NCBI RefSeq assembly: GCF_000687875.1 | Contig: NZ_JHYG01000009.1 | Span: 33,634-57,633, forward strand | Direction: 5' to 3' | Source: Acidocella facilis ATCC 35904 | Lineage (GTDB): Bacteria > Pseudomonadota > Alphaproteobacteria > Acetobacterales > Acetobacteraceae | DNA length: 24,000 bases | Shown: positions 3,751-17,836 of the stretch, in pieces | Numbering within the stretch: the stretch's first letter is position 1 | Layout: each line of letters begins with the position of its first letter | Notes under the pieces: model-generated | Told to the model about the DNA's origin: nothing | The model's input: only the letters and a program-made list of their open reading frames with translations | The model's database searches: none | Made by a program: the position numbers and the translations under genes

Positions 3751-4440
3751 ATGGTTCCGGCCTGGCTCAATGATCTGGCGATGCTGTCCCTGGCCGCCGC
3801 GTTCATCAGTGCGCTGATTATTTTGTGGGATCTGCGTGCCCGCCCGCAGGCGATGGCGGTGATGAACCCGGTCTGGCCGGTCACCGCCTTATATTTCGGG
3901 CCGCTCGGGCTCTGGGCCTATTGGCGGCTGGGGCACGCGGCGCCGGCATCGCATCACGCGCATAATCACCATCATCATCACGGCGATGACAAACCGTTCT
4001 GGGTGCAGGTCTTCGCCGGCACCACCCATTGCGGGGCGGGCTGCACGCTGGGCGATATTGTCGCGGAATTTCTGGTGTTTTTCTCAGGGCTGGCGATCGC
4101 CGGCTCGGTGTTCGCGGGGCAACTGGTGCTGGATTATGCCTTCGCCTTCCTGCTCGGCATCGTCTTTCAATATTATTCCATCGTGCCGATGCGCGGGCTG
4201 CAGCCGGCCGAGGGCATCAAGGCGGCGGTGAAGGCGGATTTCTGGTCGCTCACCGCCTTCGAGGTCGGGCTGTTCGCCTGGATGGCGCTCACCCGCTTCG
4301 TGTTTTTCGGCCCCAGCCTGCAGCCGGACAGCGCCACCTACTGGTTCATGATGCAGATCGGCATGATCATCGGCTTCGCCACGGCGTTTCCGATGAACTG
4401 GCTGCTGATCAAATCCGGGGTGAAGGAGCCCTGCATGTAG
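3751..4440 (+). CDS. DUF4396-like integral membrane protein with a His-rich loop
   Basis: AGGAGG lies upstream of the ATG at 3751. The protein has multiple TM helices, the motif THCGAGCTLGD, and the loop HHAHNHHHHHGDD. Confidence 0.7.
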   Translation: MVPAWLNDLAMLSLAAAFISALIILWDLRARPQAMAVMNPVWPVTALYFGPLGLWAYWRLGHAAPASHHAHNHHHHHGDDKPFWVQVFAGTTHCGAGCTLGDIVAEFLVFFSGLAIAGSVFAGQLVLDYAFAFLLGIVFQYYSIVPMRGLQPAEGIKAAVKADFWSLTAFEVGLFAWMALTRFVFFGPSLQPDSATYWFMMQIGMIIGFATAFPMNWLLIKSGVKEPCM

Positions 4441-4447
4441 GCGCGTG

Positions 4448-4553
4448 TTAGAGCAATATGTGTTTAGGTTGACGCGCCAGCGTCAAGAAAAACACATGAA
4501 ATTGCTCGCTAAAACAAAACTTAGAGCATCAAGCTAAAAGCTTGATGCTCTAG
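4448..4553 (-). mobile_element. MITE-like TA-flanked dual-hairpin repeat, copy 1 (strand given as the orientation in which the terminator hairpin comes first)
   Basis: It is 103/106 identical to the reverse complement of 13605-13710. It has a perfect 14-bp stem (4522-4535 / 4539-4552, loop AAA), followed on the minus strand by GTTTTGTTTT. It also has a long imperfect hairpin at 4451-4507 with apex TTGACGC-GCCA-GCGTCAA. The GAGCA..TGCTC termini are flanked by TA on both sides. Confidence 0.8.
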
Positions 4554-5227
4554 CCGCGCAGCTCTTTCAGTGATTTGATCGCATTGCCCTGCGCATCGAA
4601 ATTCGCCTCATCCAGCCAGGCGAGAATCGCATCGCGCTGTTGCGGCCATTCATGCCCGAGCATCGCATACATCGCGGTGTCGCGCTCGCGCCCCTTCACC
4701 ACCATATGCGCGCGCAGCGTGCCCTCATAGGAAAAGCCCAGGCGCAGCGCGGCACGTTTGGAAGGCTCGTTGAGCGCGTTGCATTTCCAGACCAGCCGGC
4801 GATAGCCGAGATCCTCCGCCGCGTGGCGCAGCATCAGGAACATCGCCTCGGTCGCGGCACGGGTGCGGCGCAGCTCCGGGCCCAACCAGATATTGCCGAG
4901 CTCGATGGCGGCATTCTTTGGCTCGATATTCATCAGCGACAGAAAGCCGGAGACACGGCCGATGGTGGTCGGCCGCACCGCCCAGAAGGCGGCCAGCGGG
5001 TCGGCGTAAAAGCCGGCAATCAGCGCTTCCACCTCGGCCACACTCTTCCACGGGCCGAAGGACATATAGGTGAAACTGTCCTCGGCGAATTGCGAGGCCT
5101 CGAACAGTTCCAGCGCATGGCGGCGGGTGAGTGGCTCCAGGCTGACGCGCGCGCCCAGAAATTTCTGCCGGGCGGGCAGCGGGCGCGGCCAGGTATCGAC
5201 CTCGGGGCCGAGGGGAAGCTTGGTCAT
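4550..5227 (-). CDS. GNAT family N-acetyltransferase (RimJ/RimL-like)
   Basis: The 225-aa ORF shows a GNAT core pattern (IELGNIWLGPELRRTRAATEAMFLMLRHAAEDLGYRRLVWKCNALNEPSKRAALRLGFSYEG). It lies 3 nt downstream of hldE on the same strand. Confidence 0.75.
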   Translation of the reverse strand: MTKLPLGPEVDTWPRPLPARQKFLGARVSLEPLTRRHALELFEASQFAEDSFTYMSFGPWKSVAEVEALIAGFYADPLAAFWAVRPTTIGRVSGFLSLMNIEPKNAAIELGNIWLGPELRRTRAATEAMFLMLRHAAEDLGYRRLVWKCNALNEPSKRAALRLGFSYEGTLRAHMVVKGRERDTAMYAMLGHEWPQQRDAILAWLDEANFDAQGNAIKSLKELRG

Positions 5228-12314: not shown

Positions 12315-12321
12315 AGGTTTT

Positions 12322-12347
12322 GTGGCCCTTTTTGAAAAAAGGGCCAC
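12322..12347. repeat. Palindrome GTGGCCCTTTTT-G-AAAAAAGGGCCAC
   Basis: A perfect hairpin lies 8 nt after the dnaN stop. The A/T runs are inside the stem rather than flanking it. Confidence 0.6.
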
Positions 12348-12484
12348 GCCCTCCGGCGGCTTTCCAGCACCGCTTCGCGATGCTGGAACCTTGGCCGCCT
12401 GCGCCCAAAAACGTTTGCGCCTGGGTGCTGGGGGTTTTCCACGCCGTTGCCAGGGCTTCACCGCCCGTGAGCAAAAGTTTTTGC

Positions 12485-12508
12485 TGCCGCTTTTTTCAAA
12501 AAGCGGCA
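12485..12508. repeat. Palindrome TGCCGCTTTTT-TC-AAAAAGCGGCA
   Basis: A perfect hairpin lies 17 nt before the recF start. Its 12-nt core is the reverse complement of the core at 12322-12347. Confidence 0.6.
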
Positions 12509-12524
12509 AAGGACCGCCGTCATA

Positions 12525-13637
12525 TTGCTATCCCGCCTGACGCTCACCGATTTCCGCTCCTACGCCACGCTGCGCTTTGAGGCGCCGGCGCGGCGCCTGG
12601 TGTTCACCGGCCCGAACGGCGCGGGCAAGACCAATCTGCTGGAAGCGGCCTCGCTGCTGGTCCCTGGGCGCGGCCTGCGCGGGGCAAAATTCGCCGAGCT
12701 GGCGCGCCAGGGCGGCGCCGGGGGCTGGGCGGTGGCCGCACAGTTTTCCAACGGGCTGGAGATCGGCACCGGGGCGGTGGAAGGGGCGCCGGAGCGGCGG
12801 GAATTCCGCCTCAACGGGGTGAAGCCCCGGGCGCAATCGGATGTCGCGGAGCAGCTCGCCGCTGTCTGGCTGACCCCACAGATGGACCGGCTGTTCACGG
12901 ATACCGCCTCCGGCCGACGTAAATTCCTGGATCGCCTGGTGATCGCGCTGGAGCCGTTCCATGCGCGCGAGATCGCGGCCTTCGAGAGTGCCTCCGCCCA
13001 GCGCAACCGGCTGCTGGCCGAGCCGCGTTACGACCCTGCCTGGGTGGCGGGGCTGGAGGATGCGATGGCCCGCCATGCCGTCGCCGCCACGGCGGCCCGG
13101 CTGGGGCTGATCGCGCGGCTGAATGCGAGCCTGGAGGCGGGCGCGGCGGACCCGTTTCCGCGGGTGACACTGGGGTTGGCCTGCCCGATCGCGCAGCTTC
13201 TGGACGCGGCTGCGGCGCTGGATGTGGAAGACTGGCTGCGCGGCGCGCTGGCGGCCTCGCGCGCCACCGATGCGGCGGTGAAATCCTCAGGCTACGGCCC
13301 GCAGAAGGCCGATCTGCTGATTGCCGATGCCCAGGCCGGCCGCCCCGCCGCGCTCTCCTCCACCGGCCAGCAGAAGGCGATGCTGATCGGCATCGTGCTC
13401 GGCCATGTCGCTTTGATTACCGCGCTGCGGGGCGCCCCGCCGCTGCTGCTGCTGGATGAGCCGCTGGTGCATCTGGATGCGCAGCGGCGCGGCGCCTTGT
13501 TCGCTGCCCTGGCCCGGATGGACGCGCCGGCCTGGCTGACCGGCACGGATCAGGAGCTGTTCGCGGGGCTGGACGCCGCGCGTCTGGCCGTGCGCGAGAG
13601 CCTCTTAGAGCATCAAGCTTTTCGCTTGAGGCTCTAA
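12525..13637 (+). CDS. recF: DNA replication and repair protein RecF
   Basis: TTG start. LTLTDFRSY, Walker A GPNGAGKTNLLEA, the signature STGQQKA and Walker B LLLLDEP are present. The last 10 codons and the stop lie inside repeat copy 2. Confidence 0.9.
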   Translation: MLSRLTLTDFRSYATLRFEAPARRLVFTGPNGAGKTNLLEAASLLVPGRGLRGAKFAELARQGGAGGWAVAAQFSNGLEIGTGAVEGAPERREFRLNGVKPRAQSDVAEQLAAVWLTPQMDRLFTDTASGRRKFLDRLVIALEPFHAREIAAFESASAQRNRLLAEPRYDPAWVAGLEDAMARHAVAATAARLGLIARLNASLEAGAADPFPRVTLGLACPIAQLLDAAAALDVEDWLRGALAASRATDAAVKSSGYGPQKADLLIADAQAGRPAALSSTGQQKAMLIGIVLGHVALITALRGAPPLLLLDEPLVHLDAQRRGALFAALARMDAPAWLTGTDQELFAGLDAARLAVRESLLEHQAFRLRL

Positions 13638-13710
13638 GTTTTGTTTTAGCGAGCAATTTCATGTGTTTTTCTTGACGCTGGCGCGTCAACCTAAACACAT
13701 ATTGCTCTAA
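13605..13710 (+). mobile_element. MITE-like TA-flanked dual-hairpin repeat, copy 2 (inverted relative to copies 1 and 3)
   Basis: Its reverse complement is 103/106 identical to 4448-4553. The terminator-like hairpin at 13606-13636 has two mismatches and is followed by GTTTTGTTTT (13638-13647). TA flanks are present at 13606-13607 and 13708-13709. Confidence 0.8.
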
Positions 13711-13796
13711 CCTCCGGCTGAAGCTTTCTCCACCTGCCGGCATTCGCCCGTGCCCGCGCCTAAATCGCGGGGAGCAACCGCAGAACGGGAGAAGCC

Positions 13797-15645: not shown

Positions 15646-15721
15646 GCGGCGCTTCATCCCCCGTTAACATGAGGCGTGGCAGACTCATGTTTATCTTCCA
15701 ATCTTGCAAAAGCGGGGTGTG

Positions 15722-16114
15722 ATGTCCTCTCTGGTCCTGGAATTGAAGCAGGGTGAATCGATGATCCTCAATGGGGCGGTCATCCGGTTCAAAACCCGCA
15801 CGCGGCTGGAGCTGAACAGCCATGCGCGCTTTCTCTTCGGCAAGCAGATCATGCCGGCGGAGGAAGCCACCAGCCCGCTGCGCCAAGCCTATTTCGCCTT
15901 GCAGCAGGCTTATATCAGTGATGAGGAGGAGCGGCCGGAGGCGCTGCAGCGCGCCCGCGACAATATTCGCCGGCTGATGGGCGAGGCGCCGGAGGCGCAG
16001 CGCGAGGACTGGTCCGCGCTGCTGCGCCTGACCAGCGAGGAGACCGTGCTGGATGCGCTCAAGCGCGCCCGGCAGATGATCCGCGCGGCGGAGTCGGCAC
16101 CGCAAGGGAATTGA
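15722..16114 (+). CDS. flbT: FlbT-family flagellar biosynthesis repressor homolog
   Basis: MSSLVLELKQGESMILNGAVIRF...RLEL..HARFLFGKQIM...ATSPLRQAYFALQQAY aligns by eye to the Caulobacter FlbT N-terminal region (LKPGEKFVLNGAV...LREKDIM...TPARHIYF). Confidence 0.65.
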   Translation: MSSLVLELKQGESMILNGAVIRFKTRTRLELNSHARFLFGKQIMPAEEATSPLRQAYFALQQAYISDEEERPEALQRARDNIRRLMGEAPEAQREDWSALLRLTSEETVLDALKRARQMIRAAESAPQGN

Positions 16115-16121
16115 TGTTTGC

Positions 16122-16153
16122 GTTGAGCCGGGCGTGGTTATGTCCGGCTCAAC
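16122..16153 (+). terminator. Hairpin after flbT (possible terminator, no U-tract)
   Basis: GTTGAGCCGG / CCGGCTCAAC form a 10-bp stem with a 12-nt loop. The hairpin is followed by GTAATGG. Confidence 0.35.
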
Positions 16154-16168
16154 GTAATGGGATTTGGT

Positions 16169-16254
16169 TTAGAGCAATATGTGTTGAGGTTGACGCGCCA
16201 GCGTCAAGATAAACACACGAAATTGCTCGCTAAAACAAAAGCTTGATGCTCTAG
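16169..16254 (-). mobile_element. MITE-like TA-flanked repeat, copy 3 (20-bp internal deletion removes one arm of the terminator hairpin)
   Basis: It is colinear with copy 1 apart from three substitutions in the long hairpin and the loss of the 20-nt segment between two TTTT runs. TA flanks are present at 16170-16171 and 16252-16253. Confidence 0.75.
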
Positions 16255-16802
16255 CCGCGCAGCTCTTCCAGCCGTGCCAGCAGGGCCGGCATGTCCGGCT
16301 GTACCTCAAACAGATCGCGCACCTCCGGCCTGGCGAAGCCGCGCTTGATCGTCTCGTCGATCATCGCGATGAACGGGTCGGCCCAGCCGAGAATATTCAC
16401 CAGAATGATCGGCTTGGCGTGCTGGCTGAGCTGCTTCCAGGTCAGGATCTCGAAGGTCTCGTCATAGGTGCCCAGCCCGCCGGGCATCACCACGAACACA
16501 TCGCCCAGCGCAAACAAGCGGCGCTTGCGGGTATGCATCGAATCGGTGACGATCAGCTCGGTCAGGCCCTGGAACTCCACCTCGCGCTGGCGCAGGAAAT
16601 CCGGGATGATGCCGGTCACCTCGCCGCCCGCGCCCAACGTCGCGCCGGCGGTGATGCCCATCAGCCCGACATTGCCGCCGCCGAACACTAGGCGCATGCC
16701 GCGCTTGCCCAGCCCTTCACCCAAGGATGTGGCCGCCGCCGCATAGGCCGGATCCACCCCCGGGTTGGAGCCGCAAAATACGGTGACGGAAAAACTAGCC
16801 AT
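16251..16802 (-). CDS. LOG family (TIGR00730) nucleotide phosphoribohydrolase-like protein
   Basis: FCGSNPG, VFGGGNVGLMG and PGGLGTYDETFE (PGGxGTxxE) motifs are present. The ATG at 16802 is preferred over the longer ORF starting at 16883. Confidence 0.8.
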   Translation of the reverse strand: MASFSVTVFCGSNPGVDPAYAAAATSLGEGLGKRGMRLVFGGGNVGLMGITAGATLGAGGEVTGIIPDFLRQREVEFQGLTELIVTDSMHTRKRRLFALGDVFVVMPGGLGTYDETFEILTWKQLSQHAKPIILVNILGWADPFIAMIDETIKRGFARPEVRDLFEVQPDMPALLARLEELRG

Positions 16803-16855
16803 CTCACTCTGCCTCGCTTCCAGTTCTGCCCCGTTCGTGGCAGGCTGAAGCGGCC

Positions 16856-17836
16856 ATGGCAAGCAACGACACTCTTGAGACACCGGTGCGCAAGCGCACC
16901 CCTCTGCGGCTGATCATCCTTCTCGTGCTGGTCATCCTGGCGCTGGGGGATGCGGCGCTGCTCTTCTATCTGCATCACGGTCGCCACGGCGCGCCGGCCC
17001 CGGCCGTGCCGGTAGCACCCAGCGCTCCGGCGACGCCGCAGGCGGCCGCCGGCCCCGCCGTGCCGAGCTTCGACATCGTCCGCGTCGACCCGCAGGGCAA
17101 TGCGGTGATGGCCGGCCGTGCCGTGCCGGGGGCCACCGTGACCGTCAAGGATGGCGACAAGGTGCTGGGCACCGCGACCGCGGATGCGCAAGGCGCCTTC
17201 GTGCTGATCCCGGCCAGCCCGCTGCCCCCCGGTTCGCATGAGATCACGTTGTCCGAGGCGCTGCCCGGCGGGCAGGTGGTGCAGGGCCAGCAAAGCGCCT
17301 CGATCAATCTGCCCGGCAATGGCCAGCCGGCGCTGGCCGTGGTCTCCGGGCCGGATGGCAGCAAGGTTGTCACCGGCCAGGGGCCGCAGCCCGGCCAGCT
17401 CGGCATGGGGGCGGTGGATTACGACGCGCAGGGCCATGCCATATTCAGCGGCACCGCTCCGGCGGGGGCGCAGGTCACGGTCAATGTCGGCGGCAAGGAT
17501 CTCGGCACCGCCAAGGCGGATGCCTCCGGCCATTGGCATCTGCAGGCATCGGTGCCGACGGCGCCTGGCATGGTCACGCTGAACGCCACCGGCCCGGATG
17601 GCCAGGCGCTCCCACCGGTGACCGCGCCTTTTGCGCCGGAAGCTCTGACCAAGGCGCTGCAGGACGGCCATGTGCTGATCGCCCCCGGCGATAATCTCTG
17701 GATGATCGCGCGCCGGGTTTATGGGAAAGGCACCTTGTATACGCTGATCTATTCCGCCAATGCGGGGCAGATCCACGACCCCAACCTGATTTTCCCCGGC
17801 CAGGCCTTCGCCCTGCCGCAGACTCAGGCGCACTGA
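16856..17836 (+). CDS. LysM peptidoglycan-binding protein with an N-terminal TM anchor and Ig-like repeats
   Basis: The TM segment is LRLIILLVLVILALGDAALLFYL. There are two repeated modules (G.AVPGATVTVKDGDKVLGTATADAQGAF and GTAPAGAQVTVNVGGKDLGTAKADASGHW). The C-terminal LysM region reads IAPGDNLWMIARRVYG...YTLIYSANAGQIHDPNLIFPGQ. Confidence 0.75.
   Translation: MASNDTLETPVRKRTPLRLIILLVLVILALGDAALLFYLHHGRHGAPAPAVPVAPSAPATPQAAAGPAVPSFDIVRVDPQGNAVMAGRAVPGATVTVKDGDKVLGTATADAQGAFVLIPASPLPPGSHEITLSEALPGGQVVQGQQSASINLPGNGQPALAVVSGPDGSKVVTGQGPQPGQLGMGAVDYDAQGHAIFSGTAPAGAQVTVNVGGKDLGTAKADASGHWHLQASVPTAPGMVTLNATGPDGQALPPVTAPFAPEALTKALQDGHVLIAPGDNLWMIARRVYGKGTLYTLIYSANAGQIHDPNLIFPGQAFALPQTQAH

What the first reader, a model, noticed from the sequence alone, without database searches (positions are those of the whole stretch)
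4448..4553. Novel ~106-bp TA-flanked dual-hairpin MITE-like element, three copies in 12 kb, always at gene 3' ends
Copies lie at 4448-4553, 13605-13710 (inverted, 103/106 identical) and 16169-16254. Each has GAGCA...TGCTC termini (7-8 nt inverted repeat TAGAGCA) flanked by TA on both sides. That pattern is consistent with TA target-site duplication, as in IS630/Tc1-mariner-derived MITEs and Neisseria Correia elements. In the orientation of the adjacent upstream gene, the element begins with a 14-bp perfect hairpin followed by GTTTTGTTTT, which forms an intrinsic terminator. A ~57-nt imperfect hairpin with a TTGACGC-GCCA-GCGTCAA apex follows. In all three copies a gene reads into the terminator end. 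In a ~68% GC genome TA dinucleotides are scarce, and TAA/TAG stop codons are tolerated targets. That would explain the placement.
Basis: partly seen in the sequence, partly recalled or inferred. Interest (0 to 1): 0.68.

Follow-up and report, generated by a model that had tools for sequence, protein, structure and literature searches.

The report
IS630-derived TA-inserting MITE family
The three 104-bp repeats belong to a real, recently mobile family of miniature transposons (about 125 copies in this genome) that insert at TA dinucleotides, often in stop codons between converging genes; it is a new member of a well-known kind of element, not a new kind.

Summary
The three window copies belong to a family of about 125 loci in this 3.4-Mb, 64.5% GC alphaproteobacterial genome.

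- **Structure.** A full copy is 104 nt, TAGAGCA...TGCTCTA. It has a 57-nt imperfect hairpin A, an A-rich linker and a 31-nt perfect hairpin B.
- **Mobility.** A sister species (G010) lacks window copies 1 and 2 at the orthologous sites. Of 40 G010 copies, 18 have empty sites in this genome; four of these are exactly "TA" and five more keep the TA beside flanking substitutions. This shows TA target-site duplication.
- **Target.** The target is YTAR in 73 of 79 copies, against a 19% background.
- **Terminal repeats.** The two ends are true repeats of about 27 nt (20/27 identical). They match the ends of co-resident IS630-family insertion sequences (21/27 to the G010 IS). No RAYT gene and no Rfam match were found.
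- **Placement.** Copies avoid genes and promoters: 25 of 35 lie between convergent genes and none between divergent ones. In 13 of 39, the terminal TA+G supplies a gene's TAG stop.
- **Terminator.** Hairpin B plus GTTTTGTTTT looks like a terminator, but copy orientation shows no selection for that role.

Verdict: a new member of a known kind, closest to RUP and Nezha; of modest interest. The scan had not seen this element on other DNA.

The parts
4449..4552 (+). Copy 1, a full-length type-1 MITE (104 nt including both TA). Hairpin A is about 4451-4507, the A-rich linker 4508-4521 and hairpin B 4522-4552.
   Evidence: The orthologous site G010:C61 is empty, with about 94% identical flanks.
13606..13709 (-). 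Copy 2, a full-length type-1 MITE in inverted orientation, inserted inside the last codons of recF. The hairpin-B stem has one mismatch.
   Evidence: G010:C61:13782/13783 is contiguous without the element.
16170..16253 (+). Copy 3, a type-1 MITE with a 20-nt internal deletion that removes the left arm of hairpin B, so no terminator hairpin remains.
   Evidence: The site is empty in G010, G065, G073 and G011. G059 has a hairpin-A-only relative there.
4522..4552 (-). Hairpin B, a 14-bp perfect stem with a 3-nt loop. Read on the minus strand it is followed by AGTTTTGTTTT (4521-4511), giving a predicted intrinsic terminator for the GNAT gene.
   Evidence: Consensus terminator scan and fold. Function is not tested.
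4550..5227 (-). GNAT acetyltransferase gene whose TAG stop (4550-4552) is made of the terminal TA of the element plus the first base of the flank.
   Evidence: The G010 orthologue ends ...LRGG-TGA without the element.
3751..4440 (+). DUF4396 gene, convergent with the GNAT gene. It ends 9 nt before copy 1 on the hairpin-A side.
12525..13637 (+). recF. Its last residues (EHQAFRLRL) and its TAA stop are encoded by copy 2. The G010 orthologue ends ...SLLTSG-TGA.
16251..16883 (-). LOG / lysine-decarboxylase-like gene whose TAG stop (16251-16253) overlaps the terminal TA of copy 3. It is convergent with flbT (15704-16114, plus strand).
   Evidence: The G010 orthologue ends ...LRGKAG-TAA.

Best explanation

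A full copy is 102 nt of element DNA (GAGCA...TGCTC) flanked by a duplicated TA. Its two outermost ~27 nt are terminal inverted repeats, roughly TAGAGCA-N5-G-N2-TTTAG-N-TTGA-N-GC, and resemble the ends of IS630-family insertion sequences in the same genus. Each terminal repeat is followed at once by its own inverted complement. The element therefore folds into two hairpins, A and B, joined by an A-rich linker.

The transposase cuts the element out and pastes it into a TA, with a strong preference for YTAR. The first element base after the TA is G at both ends. Insertion into the TA of a TAA or TAG stop codon therefore recreates a TAG stop for a gene reading in from either side. In a GC-rich genome such sites (codon ending in C or T, then TAA/TAG) are among the few harmless YTAR targets. 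Purifying selection removes insertions in genes and promoters. The survivors pile up between convergent genes and on stop codons.

Read from the hairpin-B side, the transcript forms a 14-bp hairpin followed by a U-run and probably terminates there. This looks like a by-product, not a selected function.

- Shown: repeat family, structure, TA duplication, target preference, insertion polymorphism, terminal-repeat similarity to IS630 elements, and genomic placement.
- Inferred: which transposase moves it, that selection explains the placement, and termination.
For: - **Family size.** About 110-125 loci, of which 39-46 are full-length type 1.
- **Window copies.** Copies 1 and 2 are absent from the orthologous G010 sites.
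- **Reverse test.** Of 40 G010 copies, 18 have empty sites in G000. Four empty sites are exactly TA (L045, L053, L060, L069). Five more keep the TA with neighbouring substitutions (L078, L074, L059, L046, L064).
- **Termini and target.** TAGAGCA starts 72/79 and GCTCTA ends 72/79 full copies. Flanks are YTAR in 73/79, against 19% of intergenic NTAN.
- **Terminal repeats.** The left end TAGAGCAATATGTGTTTAGGTTGACGC and the right end read inward, TAGAGCATCAAGCTTTTAGCTTGATGC, are 20/27 identical (direct reading).
- **Match to IS ends.** The right terminal repeat (IRR) of the G010 IS630 element, TATAGTCTTCTGTGATTAGGTTGACGC, is 21/27 identical to the MITE's left end. The IRR of the G000:C29 and G013 elements, TAGAGTCTCTTTCA(C/T)TTAATTTGACGC, is 16/27 identical.
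- **Related full-length IS.** The G009 and G006 IS630 elements are 1053 and 1055 bp, TA-flanked, with TAGAGC termini and two ORFs joined at an A-run. The G006 ends match the type-3 subfamily ends.
- **Transposase identity.** The proteins score as NF033545 IS630 family, 157.5 and 150.4 bits against a cut-off of 100.
- **No rival machinery.** No Y1/RAYT transposase in the genome and no Rfam family.
- **Context.** None of 39 copies lies inside a gene. 25/35 are convergent against about 20-25% expected (p=7e-9), and 0 are divergent. 13/39 form a stop codon.
- **Activity.** Nested and same-site independent insertions occur. G010 copies are near-identical (median 96%), against 89% in G000.
- **Distribution.** Patchy within one genus: 9 of 24 and about 16 of 61 genomes, and none in 16 other families of the class.
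Against: - The empty sites for the two window copies are not clean. G010 has TTCAGCC where G000 has CGTGT plus copy 1, and CTGA where G000 has T-[element]-A for copy 2. For these two, the TA duplication is inferred from the family, not shown.
- The only cognate IS630 copy in this genome (C29) lacks a recognisable left end and about the first 10 codons. The elements may now be immobile here.
- No IS has ends identical to the MITE ends. The best match is 21/27.
- An IS5-family element also present in the genome typically targets YTAR-like sites (from memory of that family). The target alone therefore does not single out IS630.
- Gene context rests on my own GC3-based gene caller, which finds only 81% coding.
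- Association of the MITE with the transposase across the genus is weak: 13/16 against 23/45 genomes, and these are not independent.
- No transcript data exist for the terminator.
Confidence: 0.88

Rival explanations
1. The elements are MITEs, but they are mobilised by a different transposase with a TA/YTAR target, for example the multicopy IS5-family element of this genome, and not by the IS630-family one.
For: A multicopy IS5-like element abuts the terminal TA of at least 5 copies. The YTAR preference is also typical of IS5-group targets, from memory of that family. The cognate IS630 copy in G000 is 5'-truncated.
Against: The IS5-like end (GGTCGTGTCTGCATTCATC) has no similarity to the MITE ends. 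IS630-family ends share TAGAG, the internal TTAG and the TTGA(C)GC blocks at the same offsets, with 16-21 of 27 identical. The clean 2-bp TA empty sites fit IS630/Tc1-mariner and not a 4-bp YTAR duplication.
Confidence: 0.06
2. The elements are domesticated. They are kept because they act as portable transcription terminators or RNA-stabilising 3' hairpins for the genes that read into them. This is not exclusive of a MITE origin.
For: Hairpin B plus the U-run is the best terminator-like site in 13 kb. Both hairpins are kept by compensatory changes: 96% of cells are paired and 20/37 pairs show double changes, against 31-43% paired in slid controls. All three subfamilies keep the same hairpin / A-rich linker / hairpin layout with unrelated stems. 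63 of 74 sides face gene 3' ends.
Against: There is no orientation bias. Hairpin A faces a 3' end as often as hairpin B (34/38 against 29/36). In tandem gene pairs the non-terminating orientation is commoner (7 against 3). Copies are insertion-polymorphic between sister species. Copy 3 lost the hairpin and copy 2 carries a mismatch without visible consequence. The complementarity can also be explained if each hairpin is a pair of inverted transposase-binding sites.
Confidence: 0.15
3. The elements are REP/BIME-type palindromes spread by a RAYT (IS200/IS605-like tyrosine transposase) through single-strand hairpin recognition.
For: The two hairpins are maintained by compensatory change. The location is extragenic, at gene 3' ends.
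Against: No Y1_Tnp/RAYT gene is in the 99.4%-complete genome. TA duplication at clean empty sites, true terminal inverted repeats and IS630-like ends are not REP properties.
Confidence: 0.02
4. The sequence is a conserved structured non-coding RNA or a cis-regulatory 3'-UTR element, not mobile DNA.
For: Predicted folding is strong (z of -8.6 to -10), with covariation.
Against: No Rfam family matches. The best sub-threshold hit scores 21.9 bits against a gathering score of 47. Copies occur in both orientations relative to neighbouring genes. The element is absent from orthologous sites of sister species and present at non-orthologous ones. Distribution within the genus is patchy.
Confidence: 0.02

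Closest known systems
RUP (repeat unit of pneumococcus), the IS630-Spn1-derived MITE of Streptococcus pneumoniae
   Same: Size is nearly the same (107 bp against 104 bp) and so is copy number (108 against about 125). Both insert at TA. In both, terminal repeats resemble a co-resident IS630-family IS that is proposed to mobilise them in trans. Both are mostly intergenic and interact with other IS elements (Delihas 2008, PMC2229807, read).
   Different: The phylum differs (Firmicutes, low GC). No sequence comparison with RUP was run here. RUP is reported without further structural or functional motifs. The present family has two separate hairpins kept by compensatory change, a terminator-like module, and G as the first base at both ends, so TAG stops are regenerated.
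Correia / NEMIS elements of Neisseria
   Same: Both are 100-155-bp TA-flanked MITEs with TA duplication and long hairpin-forming repeats. Both sit close to genes and are co-transcribed with them (PMC2229807). Effects on transcription and termination are from memory of the Correia literature.
   Different: Correia is a single long foldback with 24-26-bp terminal repeats and an IHF site, and its transposase is unknown. The present family is confined to one alphaproteobacterial genus plus a single hit in Limobrevibacterium. It has two hairpins and an identifiable IS630 relative. It is not a member of that family.
Nezha and other IS630-derived MITEs of cyanobacteria, and the ISY100 / IS630 family mechanism
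   Same: These are non-autonomous derivatives of IS630-family IS with TA target duplication. ISY100 transposase binds the terminal repeats and alone carries out cut-and-paste into TA (PMC2170065 abstract). Nezha is cited from memory.
   Different: Host, sequence and internal architecture differ. Here each terminal repeat is palindromised into its own hairpin.
REP/BIME elements with RAYT
   Same: Both are extragenic palindromes at gene 3' ends, and both have hairpins kept by compensatory change.
   Different: The present family has no RAYT gene. It has a TA duplication, true terminal inverted repeats and DDE-transposase relatives.

Membership tests
Bacterial MITE | Small (under about 300 bp), non-coding, multicopy | tested here: met
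   104-106 nt, about 125 loci, stops in the reading frames. recF reads only 10 codons into it.
Bacterial MITE | Terminal inverted repeats | tested here: met
   The outer 27 nt of the two ends are 20/27 identical when read inward. Both fit the motif TAGAG-N9-11-T[TA]A-NN-TTGA.
Bacterial MITE | Target-site duplication shown by filled/empty site pairs | tested here: met
   Four empty sites are exactly TA and five more keep the TA with flanking substitutions, among 18 empty sites. The two window copies have unclean empty sites.
Bacterial MITE | Related autonomous element with similar ends | tested here: met
   IS630-family IS in G010, G013, G009, G006 and G000:C29 share TAGAG(C/T) termini and the internal TTAG..TTGA blocks, with 16-21 of 27 identical.
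IS630/Tc1-mariner-mobilised element | Duplication of a TA dinucleotide at insertion | tested here: met
   YTAR context in 73/79.
IS630/Tc1-mariner-mobilised element | Cognate DDE transposase of the IS630 family present in carrier genomes | tested here: met
   NF033545 scores 157.5 and 150.4 bits against a cut-off of 100. PF13358 hits occur in all 5 carriers tested. Across the genus the link is weak: 13/16 carriers against 23/45 non-carriers.
IS630/Tc1-mariner-mobilised element | Transposase binds the ends and moves the element in trans | not testable with these tools
   Needs gel shift or footprinting and a mobilisation assay.
Correia/NEMIS | Sequence homology to the Neisseria Correia consensus and occurrence in Neisseria | not tested
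   No Correia reference sequence was available in the tools. The family was found only in one alphaproteobacterial genus and Limobrevibacterium, so it is treated as an analogue, not a member.
REP/BIME (RAYT-dependent) | RAYT (Y1 transposase) gene in the genome | tested here: not met
   PF01797 has no match in the 99.4%-complete genome. The control genomes ring.
Rho-independent terminator | Stable stem-loop followed directly by a U-run | tested here: met
   Copy 1 on the minus strand has 14 pairs (6 GC) and a 3-nt loop, followed by AGTTTTGTTT. Copy 2 has a mismatch and copy 3 lacks an arm.
Rho-independent terminator | Transcripts end at the U-run | not testable with these tools
Any Rfam RNA family | Covariance-model score at or above the gathering threshold | tested here: not met
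   No match at gathering threshold in the window. The best E-value hits are AbsR25 at 21.9 bits against 47 and mir-365 at 19.2 against 62.

The most novel reading that the evidence does not exclude
The two-hairpin layout is not an accident of decay but a selected design. Three subfamilies with unrelated stem sequences, and lineages in at least six species, keep the same plan through compensatory changes. That plan is a palindromised left repeat, a 3-nt bulge, an A-rich linker and a palindromised right repeat. G is the first base at both ends, which makes insertion into TAA/TAG stop codons harmless from either side. On this reading the family is adapted to live in the shared 3' ends of convergent genes, and it supplies stop codons and a one-way terminator or RNA-stabilising hairpin there. 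It would be a 'stop-codon-homing' MITE with host-level effects on 3'-end formation.
Probability: 0.15. Interest if true: 0.55.

Novelty: new member of a known kind. Interest (0 to 1): 0.33.

Why it matters
The finding gives a clean, well-documented bacterial case of a MITE tied to its IS630-family parent, and few such links exist outside RUP. It has dozens of filled/empty site pairs between sister species. It has a sharply defined YTAR target. It also shows how a TA-inserting element survives in a GC-rich genome, by landing on stop codons and between convergent genes.

For annotation, it explains altered C-termini such as that of recF, recurrent TAG stops, contig breaks, and many 3'-end hairpins that would otherwise be called native terminators. 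It does not open a new mechanism.

Tried and rejected
- **REP/RAYT model.** Rejected: no Y1 transposase.
- **Known RNA family.** Rejected: Rfam gathering and E-value scans.
- **Parent IS in this genome.** The C16 IS630-like element has unrelated ends (CTAGTACCTCTGCACAGAG). The C29 copy has only its right end.
- **Ancestral state at the insertion sites.** I tried to recover it from the GNAT, recF and LOG 3' ends of more distant relatives. Their C-termini are too diverged to tell.
- **Naming the organism.** The genome contigs pattern scan returned only Limobrevibacterium gyesilva and one MAG, which is G006. An exact-protein look-up found nothing.
- **Plasmid collection.** No match.
- **Literature.** Two searches found no description of this element.
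- **Promoter inside the element.** The consensus scan found none.
- **Orientation bias in favour of the terminator end.** Looked for and not found.

Full report
**1. Observation**

- Copy 1 (4448-4553) and the reverse complement of copy 2 (13605-13710) are 103/106 identical.
- Copy 3 (16169-16254) matches 69/73 over the first part. It lacks 20 nt, the left arm of the short hairpin.
- The element proper is 104 nt, TAGAGCA...TGCTCTA (4449-4552).
- It folds into a 57-nt imperfect hairpin A with the TTGACGCG-CCA-GCGTCAA apex, a 14-nt A-rich linker and a 31-nt perfect hairpin B. RNA dG is about -50 kcal/mol, with z of -8.6 and -10.1 against dinucleotide shuffles.
- The window is 66.6% GC, the genome 64.5% and the element 40%.

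**2. Family in the genome**

The window is G000:C9:33634-57633 of a 3.40-Mb, 48-contig assembly. FlbT and the dnaA-dnaN-recF arrangement point to an alphaproteobacterium.

BLAST and iterated nhmmer find about 110 loci. With three consensi, 125 loci are assigned, about 11 kb or 0.3% of the genome:
- 76 type 1 (46 near full length);
- 19 type 2 (12 full);
- 30 type 3 (14 full).

The three types share the plan TAGAGC-hairpin A-GCTCGC / A-rich linker / TAGAGC-hairpin B-GCTCTA, but their stem sequences are unrelated. Solo hairpin-A copies of about 60 nt also exist.

**3. Mobility and target**

Nine of 24 same-genus genomes carry the element, and none of 16 genomes from other families of the class does. 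The sister species G010, whose flanks are 92-97% identical, has at least 44 near-identical copies.

The window copies compare with G010 as follows.
- Copy 1 is missing. G010:C61 runs from the DUF4396 gene straight into the GNAT gene.
- Copy 2 is missing. Positions 13782 and 13783 of G010:C61 are contiguous.
- These two junctions are not clean. G010 has TTCAGCC where G000 has CGTGT plus the element, and CTGA where G000 has T-[element]-A.

The reverse test settles the matter. I fetched 40 G010 copies and mapped their flanks onto G000.
- 18 sites are empty, 5 are filled and the rest are rearranged.
- Four empty sites are exactly TA where G010 has TAGAGCA..TGCTCTA (L045, L053, L060, L069).
- Five more keep the TA beside flanking substitutions.

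The element therefore duplicates a TA. Across 79 full copies of both species the flanking bases give YTAR in 73 cases (TTAA 22, CTAA 18, TTAG 18, CTAG 15). The background among intergenic NTAN is 19%.

Further signs of activity:
- a type-1 copy nested in a type-3 copy;
- the same TA filled by different subfamilies or orientations in the two species;
- tight G010 copies (median pairwise identity 96%) against looser G000 copies (89%).

**4. Parent transposase**

No Y1/RAYT gene is present.

PF13358 (DDE_3) finds two IS630-family genes in G000, and others in every carrier tested. NCBIfam NF033545 (IS630 family) scores 157.5 and 150.4 bits against a cut-off of 100.

In G009 and G006 there are complete IS of 1053 and 1055 bp. 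They are TA-flanked, have TAGAGC termini, and carry two ORFs joined at an A-run. The G006 ends, TAGAGCGTATTCC... and TAGAGCATTTTCCGATCAAATTGAC..., match the two ends of the type-3 MITE.

| Sequence | Letters | Identity to MITE left end |
|---|---|---|
| Type-1 MITE left end | TAGAGCAATATGTGTTTAGGTTGACGC | reference |
| Type-1 MITE right end, read inward | TAGAGCATCAAGCTTTTAGCTTGATGC | 20/27 |
| G010 IS right terminal repeat (IRR) | TATAGTCTTCTGTGATTAGGTTGACGC | 21/27 |
| G000:C29 and G013 IS IRR | TAGAGTCTCTTTCA(C/T)TTAATTTGACGC | 16/27 |

The ends are thus true terminal inverted repeats of IS630 type. Each hairpin is such a repeat followed by its own inverted complement.

The G000 copy of the IS (C29) has an A8 slippery run. 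It lacks the left end and about ten codons. The family may therefore be at rest in this genome and active in G010.

Across 61 genus genomes, the transposase subgroup occurs in 13 of 16 carriers and 23 of 45 non-carriers. This is a weak, non-independent association.

**5. Placement**

I used a GC3-based gene caller of my own: 2654 genes, 81% coding, and it reproduces the window's genes. For the 39 full-length type-1 copies:
- none lies inside a gene;
- 25 of 35 with two called neighbours lie between convergent genes;
- 7 have hairpin A facing a 3' end and hairpin B a 5' end, and 3 the reverse;
- none lies between divergent genes.

Convergent spacers are about 20% of spacers and hold 25% of intergenic TA, giving a binomial p of 7e-9.

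In 13 of 39 copies an end overlaps a called gene by exactly the stop codon. In other words, the terminal TA plus the next base (G of the element, or the flank) forms the stop. The expectation is 13% of tolerated YTAR sites (p about 0.001).

All three window copies follow this pattern.
- GNAT and LOG end in a TAG made with the element's terminal TA.
- recF reads ten codons into copy 2. It ends ...SLLEHQAFRLRL*, where G010 has ...SLLTSG*.

Both ends face 3' ends about equally: 34/38 for hairpin A and 29/36 for hairpin B. There is no orientation preference for the terminator end.

**6. Structure conservation**

I aligned 95 distinct full copies from six species.
- 96.3% of cells in the 37 predicted pairs are standard pairs.
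- 20 pairs show changes on both sides.
- Versions with the 3' partner slid by 1-3 columns give 31-43% paired and 5-12 such pairs.

Examples in hairpin B are ATCAAGCT/AGCTTGAT (G000, G010), GTTCAGCT/AGCTGAAC (G012), ATTCAGCT/AGCTGAAT (G006) and ATTCATCT/AGATGAAT (G013).

Three explanations fit this pattern: selection on a hairpin in DNA or RNA, paired inverted binding sites, or intra-palindrome correction. The data do not separate them, and the copies are related to one another.

**7. Function**

On the strand read from the hairpin-B side, the 14-bp stem followed by AGTTTTGTTTT is the best terminator-like site in 13 kb. Types 2 and 3 also have a T-rich run after hairpin B.

Termination is plausible for copy 1 (GNAT), weaker for copy 2 (recF) and lost in copy 3. 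The lack of orientation bias argues that it is incidental.

**8. Comparison and verdict**

RUP of S. pneumoniae is the closest analogue: 107 bp, 108 copies, TA target, ends like IS630-Spn1 (PMC2229807). Correia and Nezha are further analogues.

No Rfam family, no plasmid match and no paper in two literature searches describes this element. The organism's genus could not be named. The only named hit outside it is Limobrevibacterium gyesilva.

Verdict: a genuine, recently active IS630-derived MITE family, and a new member of a known kind.

Noticed in passing
window 12315-12524 (motifs at 12329 and 12491); genome-wide in G000: A second, more abundant repeat family. It has the motif AAAAGTTTTTGG followed by a variable G+C stem around a TTTTT(T)CAAAAA(A) core. 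The 11-mer occurs 76+74 times and the 12-mer core 107+109 times, against fewer than 1 expected. Copies often form inverted pairs about 110 bp apart. The dnaN-recF spacer is one such unit. In G010, type-1 MITE copies often sit next to these units (flanks).
   Followed up: partly
G000 contig ends C1:1-146, C19:1-146, C13:61665-61810, C24:19084-19229, C12:73234-73379 (outside the window): A multicopy IS5-like insertion sequence, whose end reads ...GATGAATGCAGACACGACC, directly abuts the terminal TA of type-1 or type-3 MITE copies at five or more contig ends. The YTAR sites created by MITE termini seem to be hot spots for it.
   Followed up: partly
G000:C8:40074-40312; G000:C6:263452-263554 against L047; G000:C3:26789-26856 against L048: One type-1 copy is nested in the internal C-TA-G of a type-3 copy. 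At two orthologous TA sites, G000 and G010 carry different subfamilies or opposite orientations. This indicates repeated independent hits on the same TA.
   Followed up: partly
L034 (G059:C8, flbT-LOG spacer, orthologous to window 16115-16250): G059 has a 58-nt hairpin-A-only relative (TAGAGCCTGATCGGTTGAGGTTGATGCGCATGCGTCAACCTCAAGCTATCGCGCTTTA) in the same spacer where the window has copy 3. G010, G065, G073 and G011 have none.
   Followed up: no
window 4536-4570 and 16237-16271: The 17 nt next to copies 1 and 3 (GCCGCGCAGCTCTT(T/C)CAG) are nearly identical. Both genes encode ...ELRG before the stop. G010 has the same ELRG codons in both orthologues without the element, followed by G-TGA and KAG-TAA. 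The shared flank is therefore ancestral coding sequence and was not carried by the element. Both G000 proteins are shortened to end at ELRG.
   Followed up: partly
G000:C29:1-1030 with C14:1-400 (outside the window): The only IS630-family copy related to the MITE is 5'-truncated. It has no left terminal repeat, and ORF1 lacks its start. It sits next to another transposase-like reading frame. An A8 run at 406-413 marks the usual frameshift site.
   Followed up: partly
G000:C46 (1320 bp, outside the window): This whole contig is withheld and reads as N, so it could not be checked for an IS or rRNA.
   Followed up: no
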